Source: a virus
Taxonomy: Duplodnaviria; Heunggongvirae; Uroviricota; Caudoviricetes
Length of the DNA: 22,155 nt
Virus record (IMG/VR): IMGVR_UViG_2684622582_000011
Span: 1-22,155 of that record
Direction: 5' to 3' (one strand)
In this document: positions 1 to 3,000 of the stretch, piece after piece
How positions within the stretch are numbered: the stretch's first letter is position 1
Layout of the letters: each line of letters starts with the position of its first letter
Position numbers: made by a program

Positions 1-3000
1 ATGAACCACGCAATGTTTCCTGGCATAGTTCTAGCCTGGATTATAGGTATGCCGCTGGGAATTGGTGCATTTATTGTAGGACTGTCTTGTGCAATTGCAA
101 CTGGCTATCTGAAAGATAATAGCATCATAAAGAAAGATACCATTATAGGTATCGTTTTTTCAGGAATTTTTGTCTTGACTATCAACAGGCACAAGTCAGC
201 GGATTACAGATATCATTATTACATTACGGTTTACTCTGCATGGTATCGCCTACCATTTTTGCCACATTAAAAGCAGTCGGAATTATTCTGTCTATATACT
301 ATTAATAGCTCCAGGGTCTATTGCTGTCCTCATCACGCATCGCTTTCATAAGGCATTACTTATCGCCGTAACGATATCAATAACAATATCAGGTGTATGG
401 TTATTATATTTTCTCGACAGAGCCCCAGCGCCGACAATCGTCCTCTTATTTGCTGTAGCATTTCTTTTCGCGCTTATAATAATCAATTTTCGGAAACAAT
501 AATCTCAACAGTAGAATAAAGAGGCAAATCAATCATTACATATATAAGATGGTGCTAATATTGCACCGCCTTTAAATTGAACTTTATCCTTTCACCCTTA
601 CACAATTTAAGGAATGCAGATGACTATTTTATCAGCACCCAGCCTTTTTCCTGGTAATCGAAAACTTGAAAATCATTAACTCTAAGAAATTCTGCCAAAT
701 CGTTGAAATTACTTTAAATTAGACTCGAACAAATCAATCCCTGATGGGGCTTTTACTTATCAATTTAATCGTGTAGATATCGACCTCCATCTGCCCGCCT
801 CAGATTCGTACCTGGTGGAGGTCTTTTTTCGTTACCTCTTTCCCCCTTTAGTTCAGTATAAAATCATCAAACTAATGCTGTTCACACTATTTACCTCCAG
901 CATTCTATATAAATAATAGAAATAAAAACCCCAATACATAGTGCATTGGCATGACCAAACATCAATGCCATTATACTCGCCTCTGTTAAATACTCGCTAG
1001 TTAATATGATAGGCACGCATGATATAACAATCCATATGCTAATACATAAATACACCAGTATTTTTCTCATAGTCAGTCCCTGTGATTAACAATCAAGGCA
1101 TAGTTAAGCATATTTCACATTCAAACGTAAACATTATTAATAACATTATGTCAATCGAACTGACATCACGATTCAAGCCCTCTTCAGACTGAAGGTTAGA
1201 GCAGCGTAGAACATTTCAAAACAATACACTAAAAAAATACTTGAACAAAAAACTTAATTCTTTTTTATTGTGAACTTTAGTAATTTTGTCATGCAACTCT
1301 TTATTACATTTAGGCCTATCTTATTTCATGGCAACGCAGATACAGGACCATTTCTTGTGCTATGGATAAGTAATAAGCTAGTTACATCTTATTAAGAGAA
1401 CCATTTTTACATATCAAGATATCACCACCACCCACAATGAATTAAGTATTTTTCTTATTCTTTAGATTAGATACGTAATGAATCCCTAACTCCATTCGGG
1501 TGTCATGGTTCTTTCATTTGAAATACATTCATATCCAATGTAATATTTCCATGCGCAAATATAACCACCAACCATACCCATCATTTATTACAGAGAATTA
1601 TTTTATTCACCGAAAAGTTTCACAAAATATCCCCTGATAGAAAACTAAAAAACACTGCATAATATCGCTATTCTGGCACTTGCGAAAAATTATATTCTGC
1701 ACTTGTTGTAGCGTTCTATTTCTCCGCCTGGCAACGAATGCACAATGTCCGCCACAGTTTCTGTTCTAATTTCTTCCTGTGTTACCGCATCCTGTACGGG
1801 TAGCGCAACACCAGCATGCTAAGCAAGGCTTTCCCATCAGATTTCACTACGACTATTTGGGAGCAAGATGGAATGCAGCAGTAAAACGTGCTGGTATTCG
1901 CCGCCGTAATCCGTACCATACGCGACATACTTTTGCCTGCTGGCTGTTGACGGCAGGAGCGAACCCGGCATTTATAGCCAGCCAGATGGGGCATGAAACT
2001 GCGCAGATGGTGTATGAAATTTACGGTATGTGGATTGATGACATGAACGACGAACAGGTAGCCATGTTGAATGCGCGGTTATCGTAGTTGCAAAGTTTGC
2101 CCTCAATATGCCCCATTTAGTACCAGAGAACTGAAATAATGCAAGAAAATCAACAAATTACAAAGAAAGAACAATACAACCTGAACAAGTAAGGGCAAAA
2201 ATCACAACCATCTGACACATAAATATTTTATTTATTTTTCAAAGCGTTAAACAATATCAGCTACTACAATAAGCTACAATAACCCACTCTTTATTTGCCC
2301 CATTTTTGCCCCTTTTGCGACTTTTTGCCCCATTTTTGCCACCACAAAAAATCCTAAAAACACCCAATCCGTGAACTGCAAATTGCCCCCCTAAATACTT
2401 TCCATTAGAATCTATTCCGGCTGGCAATCATTCAATACTCGCACTATCGAAAGTTAACCAGCCAACCGCAGCGCGTTCTTGCATACGACGTGTCTGCGGT
2501 TTCCAGATCAGATCGTTAATGGAGACATTATTGCCGGAGATAATGGTGGATTCAGCATCCAGAGTAACCCCGGCGGCACCGTATCAAAAGGACGCCCAAG
2601 ATCATCAACACATTTTGTTAATCTGAAATCAGTAATACTTTCCCCATTCCCCAGGCATTGCCCATTTCCAATTGACCTGATTTGCACAGCACCTGTATCA
2701 CTAGTTATGAATGTAAATAATGTATTACGATTGCTTTCAGTGCACTTTTTAGCTACTGCTAATTGCCCATTTAGAATTGCAAGACATTCATTGCCACCAG
2801 GGTTTTTAATCTGAATATGTCCACCAGGGGCTGAGATTAAATCCGGATCATTAGTTTTTACTCCTGATATAACCCAATTATTTACATTAAAACCACTTCC
2901 AACAGGGTTTCTGATTATGCCTCCAGTAAGAACATTTCTGATATTAACCAGTACAGGACCGGGTTCAGGATCCACTGGAGCAGTACCTCCATTAAACTGA

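What the first reader, a model, noticed from the sequence alone, without database searches (positions are those of the whole stretch)
1..1780. AT-rich, apparently degraded DNA upstream of the integrase fragment, with a frameshifted hydrophobic ORF and a 59-codon hydrophobic ORF
The first 1.8 kb is very AT-rich. It contains two hydrophobic reading-frame segments in different frames (1-270 and about 299-502) that look like one disrupted membrane-protein gene, and a 59-aa hydrophobic minus-strand ORF (891-1070). Most of the rest is non-coding. This reads as the remains of a different horizontally acquired element or a decayed gene. Small hydrophobic ORFs in such regions can be membrane toxins, but nothing here supports that specifically.
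Basis: seen in the sequence. Interest (0 to 1): 0.25.

Follow-up and report, generated by a model that had tools for sequence, protein, structure and literature searches.

The report
Decayed prophage remnant with one preserved gene
The AT-rich 1.8 kb is the deletion-riddled remains of an old Rac-type prophage, fixed next to the ttcA phage-attachment site in about a fifth of complete E. coli genomes; it is ordinary junk except for one unannotated 59-codon membrane-protein gene that stays intact and almost invariant while its neighbours decay.

Summary
Window 1-1780 is 35% G+C against 52% for the rest. It holds a disrupted membrane-protein gene and an intact 59-codon hydrophobic ORF on the minus strand.

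The region is the E. coli interval between uspF and ttcA. 1045 of 5426 complete genomes carry it at 98-99.8% identity, including 536, CFT073, Nissle 1917, APEC O1 and E2348/69. K-12 lacks it.

It is a collapsed Rac-family lambdoid prophage, made of these relics:
- a sitD (Mn/Fe ABC-3 permease) pseudogene
- a truncated hok toxin gene
- fragments of DUF977 and DUF1627 genes
- the last 77 codons of intR, next to ttcA

The order and strands match intact prophages. A second, CDT-carrying Rac-type prophage then integrated at the same site (from about 2190).

The sitD relic diverged from sitD mostly at third codon positions (38/19/127 differences at positions 1/2/3). Its AT-richness is therefore native, not decay.

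The 59-aa ORF has a same-length homologue (40% identity) just upstream of hok in lambdoid (pro)phages of 1570 E. coli genomes. RefSeq does not annotate it. It is far less variable than its flanks in both settings, which suggests function. Protein-level selection is not proven. Interest is low to moderate.

The parts
1..502 (+). sitD' relic: pseudogene of a SitD-type Mn/Fe ABC-3 permease. It begins 113 nt before the window, at SitD codon 9. Frame segments are 1-171 (SitD aa 46-103), 177-299 (aa 162-202) and 299-502 (aa 203 to the end). An out-of-frame deletion of about 58 codons lies at 172-176, and a 1-nt frameshift near 297-300.
   Evidence: Pfam ABC-3 hits. tblastn against E. coli SitD gives 62-73% aa identity in three frames. 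Translations. RefSeq labels it a frameshifted 'metal ABC transporter permease'. Differences by codon position are 38/19/127 over 189 codons, and GC3 is about 0.32 against 0.56.
503..749 (.). AT-rich spacer of unknown origin (34% G+C). It contains a weak bidirectional hairpin at 550-568, just after the sitD' stop.
   Evidence: No DNA or translated match to the sit-phage, Rac/Qin-type prophages or neighbouring genes. Hairpin. Variability is neutral-like, at 3.2 variable columns per 100 bp.
750..836 (-). hok' relic: only about codons 23-51 of a Hok/Gef type I toxin gene. It has an in-frame TGA at 800-802 and two 2-nt deletions. The first 22 codons, the mok/sok region and the promoter are gone.
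   Evidence: blastn gives 77-82% identity to annotated hokD/Hok-Gef genes (H99 and H103). Explicit alignment to L009 hokD. Translation 'VTKKDLHQVRI*GGQMEVDIY'.
837..846 (.). Deletion junction. About 276 bp present in intact prophages is missing here (L009 2080-2355: hok 5' end, hok leader, mok start, sok).
   Evidence: Alignment blocks: window 767-836 aligns with L009 2010-2079, and window 847-1213 with L009 2356-2718.
891..1070 (-). Intact 59-codon ORF for a predicted two-helix hairpin membrane protein. Conserved positions in the second helix include G39, A43 and G47. RefSeq does not annotate it. This is the only undisrupted coding frame found in the remnant.
   Evidence: ORF. A same-length homologue (40% aa, 60% nt identity) lies upstream of hok in prophage L009 and in phages PhiR42_1, 640R1 and 813R8. 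One variable column in 180 bp across 10 divergent carrier genomes, against 4.9 per 100 bp in the AT-rich flanks. 1018 of 1045 genomes are at least 99% identical, against 420 of 1045 for a control flank. AlphaFold2 hairpin, pLDDT 83.
847..1213 (-). The whole block homologous to the phage 'small-ORF cassette': the ORF, 44 nt downstream and 143 nt upstream. The upstream part includes a weakened ribosome-binding region (AGGGA in place of the phage AGGAGG).
   Evidence: blastn 869-1213 against L009 2384-2718 at 62% identity. Block alignment. Upstream sequences compared.
1214..1599 (.). The most AT-rich (30% G+C) and most variable stretch (6.5 variable columns per 100 bp). Origin not identified; best read as neutrally evolving filler.
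   Evidence: No matches.
1607..1749 (-). DUF977' relic: the C-terminal third (about 45 codons) of a prophage DUF977 ('LygF') gene, frameshifted.
   Evidence: blastn 1600-1737 against the L009 DUF977 3' end at 72% identity. tblastn 58% over 26 aa. Weak Pfam DUF977 hit, E=0.0056.
1726..1844 (-). DUF1627' relic: an internal fragment of a prophage DUF1627 gene, fused by deletion to the DUF977 relic.
   Evidence: Pfam PF07789, E=5.4e-11, profile positions 75-104 of 155. RefSeq pseudogene call at the same place.
1856..2087 (+). intR' relic: the last 77 codons of a Rac-type tyrosine integrase, reading towards ttcA.
   Evidence: 97.9% nt identity to the K-12 intR 3' end plus the 51-bp spacer plus the ttcA 5' end. 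Pfam Phage_integrase hit. RefSeq partial integrase.
2139..2189 (+). ttcC-like detached 5' end of ttcA (17 codons then a stop). This is the attR core of the younger CDT-carrying Rac-type prophage, which starts just after it. It marks the right-hand limit of the old remnant.
   Evidence: Identical to the first 50 nt of ttcA in 536 and K-12. In 536 the intact ttcA starts at this position. Window 2146-2359 is 88% identical to the K-12 Rac right end.

Best explanation
Window 1-2138 is a 'grounded' remnant of an old Rac-family lambdoid prophage that integrated into the 5' end of ttcA. The proposed history is as follows.

1. The prophage carried a low-GC sitABCD-like metal-uptake operon as cargo at its right end. 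This is the layout of present-day sit-carrying prophages at this same site.
2. Serial deletions then collapsed about 40-50 kb to about 2.3 kb.
   - One deletion fused the DNA 72 bp downstream of uspF to codon 9 of sitD. It removed the old attR/ttcC and sitABC.
   - Others removed the middle of sitD, everything between sitD and the nin-region hok gene, the hok 5' half with its leader and sok, most of the stretch between the small-ORF cassette and the DUF977 gene, and everything between the DUF977/DUF1627 genes and the last 77 codons of int.
3. The remnant became fixed in one large E. coli lineage, and most of it now drifts neutrally.
4. In the strain sequenced here, a second Rac-type prophage carrying cdtABC later integrated into the same ttcA site. 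That left the ttcC-like stub at 2139-2189.

Shown directly: the identities of the relics, the junction positions and the synteny. Inferred: the order of the deletion events.

The one exception to the decay is the 59-codon ORF at 891-1070 (-). It belongs to a small Escherichia/Shigella prophage family encoded just upstream of hok. It probably encodes a two-helix inner-membrane protein. I put roughly even odds on it still being functional in this lineage. Its activity is unknown.
For: Location and distribution: 99.7% identity to the uspF-ttcA interval of strain 536 and others. 1045 of 5426 complete genomes carry 1-1720 at 98.4-99.8% identity. K-12 has only 176 bp there. It is identical to 536 for 72 bp past the uspF stop and then diverges, exactly where homology to SitD codon 9 begins.

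Relic identities: sitD', hok', DUF977' and DUF1627', and intR' at 97.9% to K-12 intR with the same 51-bp spacer to ttcA.

Synteny: hok, the small ORF and DUF977 lie in the same order and on the same strand as in intact prophages and phages. sitABCD sits in the same orientation at the attR end of a prophage at this very site in strain ERP001 and in lambdoid phages.

Literature: Rac integrates at the 5' end of ttcA (PMC6379469). sitABCD is a moron of the lambdoid prophage Perceval (PMC9928086).

Ongoing decay: extra frameshifting indels occur in sitD' in some carrier genomes (columns 33 and 230; P0014).

Small ORF:
- A same-length homologue exists with a strong AGGAGG Shine-Dalgarno sequence.
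- All 77 phage-type copies are intact with no indels. They show 3.3 variable columns per 100 bp, against about 15-16 in the flanks and in hokD (Fisher p=5e-6 and 3e-4).
- Across 10 carrier genomes there is 1 variable column in 180 bp, against 69 in 1419 bp of flank (Fisher p=0.003).
- Between the two allele types dN=0.44 and dS=0.9-2.1.
- The opposite-strand frame is not conserved.
Against: The old prophage's own attR/ttcC is missing, so its right boundary is inferred rather than seen.

No intact low-GC sit operon close to the relic was found. The best intact relatives are about 73% identical enterobacterial SitD proteins, so the donor is unknown.

Two stretches, 503-749 and 1214-1599, have no identifiable prophage homologue.

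For the small ORF:
- All 7 substitutions seen (1 in the chromosomal allele, 6 in the phage-type allele) are nonsynonymous. The low diversity therefore lacks the classical excess of synonymous change.
- The int' relic shows an equally long invariant run, 1865-2069. Low diversity is thus not unique to the ORF.
- Its Shine-Dalgarno sequence is weakened relative to the phage allele.
- Diversity comparisons among mosaic prophages can reflect module history rather than constraint.
- No expression data were available.
Confidence: 0.85

Rival explanations
1. The 59-codon ORF is a fortuitous or dead open frame, like everything around it. Its low variability would then reflect chance, local mutation-rate differences, or the history of a young sequence module, not selection for a product.
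For: ORFs of at least 59 codons occur in 65% of shuffles of this AT-rich DNA. All 7 observed substitutions are nonsynonymous. The int' pseudogene has an equally long invariant run. The ribosome-binding site is weaker than in the phage allele. There is no Pfam, PHROG, NCBIfam or PADLOC family. RefSeq does not call it.
Against: Two alleles only 60% identical in DNA keep exactly 59 codons, with the same start and stop positions, no indels and the same hydrophobic pattern. Every other frame is broken in at least one of the two alleles. dN is lower than dS between them. All 77 phage copies and all 10 sampled chromosomal copies are intact, while the adjacent hok', sitD' and the upstream gene are repeatedly broken. 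The invariant block 861-1092 coincides with the ORF plus its translation-initiation region.
Confidence: 0.4
2. The AT-rich interval is ancestral E. coli chromosome (an old metal-transporter locus) that K-12-like lineages lost, rather than prophage-derived DNA.
For: The interval is chromosomal and stably inherited in about 19% of complete genomes. The sitD relic has no close phage-borne counterpart at the DNA level, at only 68-69% identity.
Against: The interval contains relics of four typical lambdoid genes (hok, DUF977, DUF1627, intR) in phage order and orientation. Its right end is a canonical Rac attL arrangement. The left junction cuts inside sitD at codon 9, so it is a deletion scar and not a native gene boundary. 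Its composition of 35% G+C is foreign to E. coli.
Confidence: 0.05
3. The region is AT-rich because it is old junk that drifted towards A+T under mutational bias, which is the literal sense of 'degraded DNA'.
For: Changes from sitD to the relic are mostly G/C to A/T (113 against 35). The unassigned stretches are the most AT-rich and the most variable.
Against: For sitD', differences from sitD fall at codon positions 1/2/3 as 38/19/127. Amino-acid identity stays at 68-79%, and there are only three disabling lesions. This is the signature of long divergence under purifying selection in a low-GC background, followed by recent inactivation. The phage-type small-ORF allele, in active phages, is also only 37% G+C. 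Drift may still contribute in 503-749 and 1214-1599.
Confidence: 0.07
4. The conserved block around 861-1092 is constrained at the RNA or DNA level rather than as a protein. It could be a small RNA, an antisense regulator as in type I toxin systems, or a binding site.
For: Conservation shows no preference for synonymous change. The block sits beside a former hok/sok locus. A promoter-like site with an extended -10 lies antisense inside the ORF at 946-974 (+).
Against: No Rfam family matches at E<=1 apart from two sub-threshold chance hits elsewhere. Predicted folding is no more stable than shuffles on either strand (z=+0.35 and -0.93). Promoter-like sites are not enriched over shuffles (9 against 6.6±2.9), and by my reading of the sequence the antisense site is not conserved in the phage-type allele. 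An RNA-only constraint would not preserve a 59-codon frame across 40% nucleotide divergence.
Confidence: 0.07

Closest known systems
Rac cryptic prophage of E. coli K-12 and other 'grounded' prophage remnants at ttcA
   Same: The integration site is the same, the 5' end of ttcA. The integrase 3' end is 97.9% identical, with the same 51-bp spacer to ttcA. The right end of the younger prophage in the window matches the Rac right end and ttcC (PMC6379469).
   Different: Rac retains about 23 kb and can still excise. This remnant is about 2.3 kb, has lost xis, most of int and its attR, and cannot excise. It carries different cargo: a sitD relic and the hok-region cassette.
sitABCD Mn/Fe ABC transporter carried as a moron by lambdoid prophages (e.g. 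Perceval of LF82, phages 4A7 and ev207)
   Same: The relic is a SitD-type ABC-3 permease. It has the same orientation and position (attR-proximal) as sitD in the sit-prophage at this site in strain ERP001 (PMC9928086).
   Different: It is only 62-73% aa and about 69% nt identical. G+C is 38% against 50%. It lacks sitABC and is truncated, internally deleted and frameshifted. It represents a separate, unsampled low-GC allele lineage.
hok/sok (hokD/relF) type I toxin-antitoxin loci of lambdoid prophage nin regions
   Same: Window 750-836 is 77-82% identical to hokD coding sequence. It lies on the expected strand relative to the DUF977 gene and the small ORF.
   Different: Only the 3' 60% of the ORF is left. 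It has a premature TGA and frameshifts, and no mok, sok, leader or promoter. It cannot work as a toxin-antitoxin module.
Small hydrophobic prophage 'moron' proteins (small phage membrane proteins in general, such as superinfection-exclusion proteins, class II holins and type I toxins)
   Same: The 59-aa ORF is small, very hydrophobic (GRAVY 1.4), predicted to form a helical hairpin, AT-rich and an optional insert between conserved phage genes. It has conserved small residues in helix 2.
   Different: There is no sequence or structural match to any described family. It is not next to lysis genes, unlike holins. It has two helices and no detected antisense RNA, unlike typical type I toxins. No phenotype is known.

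Membership tests
ABC-3 metal permease / SitD | Sequence match to the ABC-3 family (PF00950) and to SitD itself | tested here: met
   Pfam E=5.8e-13 and 6.6e-8. tblastn to SitD gives 62-73% identity in three segments and a weaker match to SitC.
ABC-3 metal permease / SitD | Uninterrupted full-length reading frame of about 280 codons | tested here: not met
   The gene is 5'-truncated at codon 9. It has an out-of-frame internal deletion of about 58 codons and a further frameshift. It is a pseudogene.
ABC-3 metal permease / SitD | Operon partners adjacent (binding protein, ATPase, second permease) | tested here: not met
   uspF and its downstream DNA abut the relic directly.
Rac-family prophage (remnant) | Rac-type integrase 3' end abutting ttcA with the phage-supplied ttcA 5' end (attL arrangement) | tested here: met
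   Window 1856-2188 is 97.9% identical to K-12 intR 3' end, spacer and ttcA 5' end. In 536 the intact ttcA follows.
Rac-family prophage (remnant) | Further lambdoid genes in phage order and orientation | tested here: met
   hok', the small ORF and DUF977' are colinear with L009, L011 and L013. DUF1627' is supported by Pfam.
Rac-family prophage (remnant) | Second att copy (ttcC-like duplication) at the far end of the element | tested here: not met
   No ttcC-like sequence lies between uspF and sitD'. The junction is a deletion scar. The ttcC-like copy at 2139-2189 belongs to the younger CDT prophage.
Hok/Gef type I toxin-antitoxin | Intact Hok ORF of about 50 codons | tested here: not met
   Only about codons 23-51 remain, with an in-frame TGA (800-802) and two 2-nt deletions.
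Hok/Gef type I toxin-antitoxin | hok mRNA leader with mok, plus the sok antisense gene | tested here: not met
   The corresponding 276 bp of L009 is deleted. There is no Sok or hok-related Rfam hit.
Type I toxin (for the 59-aa ORF) | Small hydrophobic membrane peptide | tested here: met
   59 aa, GRAVY 1.4, predicted hairpin of two helices.
Type I toxin (for the 59-aa ORF) | Cognate antisense RNA overlapping the toxin mRNA | tested here: inconclusive
   One antisense promoter-like site lies at 946-974. Such sites are not enriched over shuffles, and by my reading of the sequence this one is not conserved in the phage allele. There is no RNA family match and no unusual RNA structure.
Type I toxin (for the 59-aa ORF) | Toxicity on expression | not testable with these tools
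   This needs an overexpression experiment.
Class II holin / pinholin (for the 59-aa ORF) | Located in the lysis cassette next to an endolysin, with a charged C-terminal tail | tested here: not met
   It lies in the nin region between the DUF977 gene and hok, several genes before Q and the lysis genes. The C-terminus is only '...IECWR'.

The most novel reading that the evidence does not exclude
The 59-codon ORF founds an undescribed family of two-helix prophage membrane proteins. The family is encoded immediately upstream of hok in Escherichia/Shigella lambdoid phages. The chromosomal copy would then be a domesticated survivor, kept by selection in a major extraintestinal-pathogenic E. coli lineage after the rest of its prophage decayed. 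It might act as a membrane-active factor, for example in phage exclusion, as a toxin-like pore or as a modulator of a host transporter.
Probability: 0.4. Interest if true: 0.45.

Novelty: new member of a known kind. Interest (0 to 1): 0.27.

Why it matters
Most of this finding is routine. It is one more grounded prophage remnant, and RefSeq already flags three of its pseudogenes. It is nevertheless a clean worked example of three things:
- Repeated integrations at one attachment site (ttcA) stack elements side by side.
- Serial deletions collapse a prophage to about 2 kb.
- Low G+C in such DNA can be inherited from the donor rather than produced by decay.

The part with some value is the small ORF. 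It is present in two allele forms in about 2,600 of 5,426 complete E. coli genomes, is skipped by RefSeq annotation and is mis-called on the wrong strand in phage records. It is also the best-conserved segment of its neighbourhood. If it is translated, it adds a widespread uncharacterised small membrane protein to E. coli prophages. It would also be a case of selective retention of a single prophage gene in strains such as CFT073, 536, Nissle 1917 and ST131.

Tried and rejected
- RNA families: the Rfam scan of 1-2600 at E<=1 gave only two sub-threshold chance hits (STnc420-like at 1223-1273 and CssrB-like at 2467-2504), and nothing hok/sok-related.
- RNA structure: folding of 850-1110 on both strands gave z=+0.35 and -0.93, so there is no structural signal.
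- Promoters and terminators: promoter-like sites are not enriched over shuffles. Three terminator-like hairpins were found against 0.6 expected, but one lies inside the ORF and two are the same weak hairpin on both strands.
- ORF length: not significant, since 65% of shuffles reach 59 codons.
- Family searches for the small protein: Pfam, PHROGs, NCBIfam and PADLOC gave no credible hit.
- Wider sequence searches: HMMER against 1.8 billion representatives found only the two allele types and their broken variants. The species-level genome scan found only Shigella.
- Structure searches: Foldseek against PDB and BFVD gave nothing significant (E>=1.9), as expected for a bare helical hairpin.
- P0014: this 199-aa '80% identical' protein looked like a diverged intact relative of the permease. 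It is the same relic with a 1-nt indel.
- Unassigned stretches: I tried to assign 503-749 and 1214-1599 by translated comparison with 17 neighbouring prophage proteins and with DNA downstream of sitD. Nothing was found.
- A wrong first reading: by eye I took 840-886 for the hok N-terminus. Alignment showed it is homologous to the 3' flank of the small ORF in phages, and the hok 5' half is deleted.
- Literature: a full-text search for the peptide sequences gave no papers.
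Full report
**1. What the sequence shows**

Window 1-1780 has 35.3% G+C, against 51.9% for the rest of the window.

The translations of 1-270 and 299-502 both hit the Pfam ABC-3 metal-permease family. They match non-adjacent parts of the profile, positions 39-98 and 195-257. The 59-codon minus-strand ORF at 891-1070 is intact. Its length carries no information: 65% of dinucleotide-preserving shuffles of 503-1728 contain an ORF at least that long.

**2. Where the region sits**

Window 1-2188 is 99.7% identical to the interval between uspF and ttcA in E. 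coli 536 and many other genomes.

The AT-rich part (1-1720) occurs once per genome in 1045 of 5426 complete E. coli genomes, at 98.4-99.8% identity. Named carriers include 536, CFT073, Nissle 1917, APEC O1, E2348/69 and O25b:H4-ST131. From my own knowledge these are phylogroup B2 strains.

RefSeq annotates three pseudogenes there: a frameshifted 'metal ABC transporter permease', a DUF1627 fragment and a partial tyrosine recombinase.

K-12 has only 176 bp between uspF and the ttcC stub that ends the Rac prophage. K-12 and 536 are identical for 72 bp after the uspF stop and then diverge.

**3. The permease relic**

The pseudogene is a SitD homologue. tblastn with E. coli SitD aligns three segments, each in a different frame:
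- aa 9-103, 73% identity
- aa 152-213, where true homology begins at about aa 162
- aa 203-271, 62% identity

The match to SitC is much weaker.

Homology starts at SitD codon 9, exactly at the point where 536 diverges from K-12. That point is 113 nt before window position 1. The left boundary is therefore a deletion scar inside sitD.

In window coordinates the segments are 1-171, 177-299 and 299-502. About 58 codons are lost out of frame at 172-176, and there is a further frameshift near 297-300. The ATG at position 1 is SitD Met46, so the '1-270 ORF' is a window-edge artefact.

Some carrier genomes have additional indels (P0014). Decay is therefore still going on.

**4. AT-richness here is not decay**

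Over 189 aligned codons, the relic differs from sitD at codon positions 1/2/3 in 38/19/127 cases. GC3 is about 0.32 in the relic and about 0.56 in sitD. Amino-acid identity remains 68-79%.

That pattern means long divergence as a working gene in a low-GC background, followed by late inactivation. No close intact relative was found. The best intact relatives are ordinary enterobacterial SitD proteins at about 73% identity over the aligned part. The donor lineage is unsampled.

**5. The remaining relics and their order**

A sensitive DNA search of 503-1728 revealed two more homologies.

- Window ~746-839 is 77-82% identical to annotated hokD/Hok-Gef genes. Alignment to an intact prophage (L009) shows that only hok codons ~23-51 survive (750-836, minus strand). 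They carry an in-frame TGA at 800-802 and two 2-nt deletions. The 276 bp that would hold the hok 5' end, leader, mok start and sok are deleted.
- Window ~1624-1726 is 75-77% identical to prophage DUF977 genes. The DUF977 relic is the frameshifted C-terminal third of the gene.

Next to the DUF977 relic is a DUF1627 fragment (Pfam E=5.4e-11).

Window 1856-2188 is 97.9% identical to the last 77 codons of K-12 intR, the 51-bp spacer and the first 50 nt of ttcA.

In intact prophages and phages (L009, L011, L013) the order is DUF977, small genes, a small ORF, hok, rem-like, DUF968, rusA and Q, all on one strand. This matches the order and strand of the relics here.

In strain ERP001 a lambdoid prophage at this same site carries sitABCD at its attR end, in the same orientation as the relic. 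Several lambdoid phages carry sit as cargo. Perceval of LF82 is one published example (PMC9928086). Rac-type integration at the 5' end of ttcA is also established (PMC6379469).

**6. Reconstruction**

The steps below are inferred from the junctions.
- An old Rac-family prophage with a low-GC sit operon integrated at ttcA.
- Deletions removed its attR/ttcC, sitABC and about 100 bp of ancestral DNA. They also removed almost all phage genes.
- The ~2.3-kb residue was fixed in one lineage.
- In the present strain a second Rac-type prophage carrying cdtABC integrated at the same site.

Supporting the last step, cdtC lies at 2508-3083 and cdtB at 3080-3925. Window 2139-2189 is a detached copy of the ttcA 5' end, and 2146-2359 is 88% identical to the Rac right end.

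**7. The 59-codon ORF**

Translated comparison found a homologue of exactly 59 codons (40% aa, 60% nt identity, no indels, same C-terminal '...IE(C/Y)WR'). It lies about 265 nt upstream of hokD in prophage L009. The same ORF occurs in phages PhiR42_1, vB_EcoS-640R1 and vB_EcoS-813R8.

The phage-type allele has a strong AGGAGG Shine-Dalgarno sequence; the chromosomal allele has AGGGA. The phage-type allele occurs in 1570 of 5426 E. coli genomes, including CFT073, which therefore has both alleles.

RefSeq annotates neither allele. Phage records call an opposite-strand ORF instead, named 'hornerin' in two of them. That opposite frame is broken in the window. GenBank and UniProt entries for the peptide exist only as 'hypothetical' or 'membrane protein'.

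The family is confined to Escherichia/Shigella. It matches no Pfam, PHROG, NCBIfam or PADLOC model.

AlphaFold2 predicts a helical hairpin with helices 2-27 and 30-57 and mean pLDDT 83. It has no informative structural neighbours. Invariant residues include W13, S17, C18, P20, G39, N42, A43, G47 and the C-terminal E56, W58 and R59.

**8. Is the ORF under constraint?**

I aligned ten divergent carrier genomes. Variable columns per 100 bp were:

| Segment | Variable columns per 100 bp |
|---|---|
| sitD' | 4.4 |
| 503-749 | 3.2 |
| hok' | 4.6 |
| 59-codon ORF | 0.56 (one site, V6M) |
| 1071-1213 | 5.6 |
| 1214-1599 | 6.5 |

The ORF has 1 variable column in 180 bp against 69 in 1419 bp of AT-rich flank (Fisher p=0.003). 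Against the immediate flanks alone, p=0.012. The invariant run 861-1054 covers most of the ORF, and the block from 861 to 1092 holds only one variable site.

At population scale, 1018 of 1045 genomes are at least 99% identical over the ORF. The figure is 420 of 1045 for an equal-length control at 1214-1393.

For the phage-type allele, all 77 sampled copies (45 distinct sequences) are intact. They have 6 variable columns in 180 bp and no indels. The comparison values are 14.7 per 100 bp upstream, 16.3 in the hok leader and 14.7 in hokD itself (p=5e-6 and 3e-4). Between the two allele types dN is 0.44 and dS is 0.9-2.1.

There are four caveats.
- All seven substitutions seen within alleles are nonsynonymous.
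- The int' relic has an equally long invariant run (1865-2069).
- These counts are not phylogenetically independent.
- Diversity among mosaic prophages reflects module history as well as selection.

I found no support for an RNA-level explanation. My reading is that the ORF is a real prophage gene family. I give roughly even odds that the chromosomal copy is still functional.

**9. Verdict**

As a remnant it is ordinary and largely already annotated. The unannotated, unusually conserved small membrane-protein ORF beside a dead hok gene is a modest new lead. Overall interest is low to moderate.

Noticed in passing
window 2508-4745 (-): A cytolethal distending toxin operon sits at the attR-proximal end of the younger prophage. 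cdtC is at 2508-3083 (Pfam CDtoxinA, E=1e-33) and cdtB at 3080-3925 (Exo_endo_phos). A cdtA-sized ORF follows at 3891-4745. Lambda-like tail genes come next on the minus strand, for example a 1150-aa J-like ORF at 9902-13354.
   Followed up: partly
window 4500-6000 and 5940-6904: A second very AT-rich stretch (29-37% G+C) lies beyond cdtA. It contains a duplicated ~250-nt segment (5940-6195 against 6648-6904, 92-97% identical, spacing ~709). It also has repeated 'ACGGGATTTTTT' terminator-like motifs and a 37-nt inverted repeat (5512-5548 / 6458-6494). This may be duplicated small cargo genes or terminators between cdt and the tail-fibre genes.
   Followed up: no
window 2280-2350: A short G/C-poor motif, 'GCCCCATTTTTGCC(CC)', is repeated three to four times just inside the younger prophage's right end. 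This falls within the stretch that is 88% identical to the K-12 Rac right end. It could be integrase or IHF arm-type binding sites of attR.
   Followed up: no
L009 2409-2594 (-); L010 and L011 3501-3677 (+); L012 and L013 about 2626-2805 (+): The phage-type 59-codon ORF is not annotated in RefSeq genomes. In three phage records an 83-aa ORF on the opposite strand is annotated instead, twice under the name 'hornerin'. This is a probable systematic mis-annotation.
   Followed up: yes
L009 2706-3127, L012 2092-2513, L013 2147-2463, L022 348-713, L025 347-663: The gene immediately upstream of the phage-type small ORF is flagged 'frameshifted; internal stop' in most sampled prophages. It is intact in a few (L023, 204 aa; L024, 104 aa). 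The small ORF is therefore conserved even where its upstream neighbour is decaying.
   Followed up: partly
window 1600-2188: The higher-GC relics (DUF977', DUF1627', int' and the attL spacer) vary far less among carrier genomes than the AT-rich relics, at 0.8-1.6 against 3-6.5 variable columns per 100 bp. One possibility is homogenisation by recombination with incoming Rac-type phages, but this is unexplained.
   Followed up: no
window 2139-2189 against K-12 ttcC: The detached ttcA 5' stub in the window is identical to the phage-supplied ttcA 5' end of K-12 and 536. It is not identical to K-12's ttcC, whose first 27 nt differ at several positions. This is as expected if the site had already been 'converted' by the older prophage before the CDT phage arrived.
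   Followed up: yes
PLSDB records NZ_CP141085.1 (385 kb) and CP054253.1 (253 kb): Two records labelled as plasmids contain the whole 1-1780 interval at 98.5-99.7% identity. They are probably chromosomal segments mislabelled or misassembled as plasmids.
   Followed up: no
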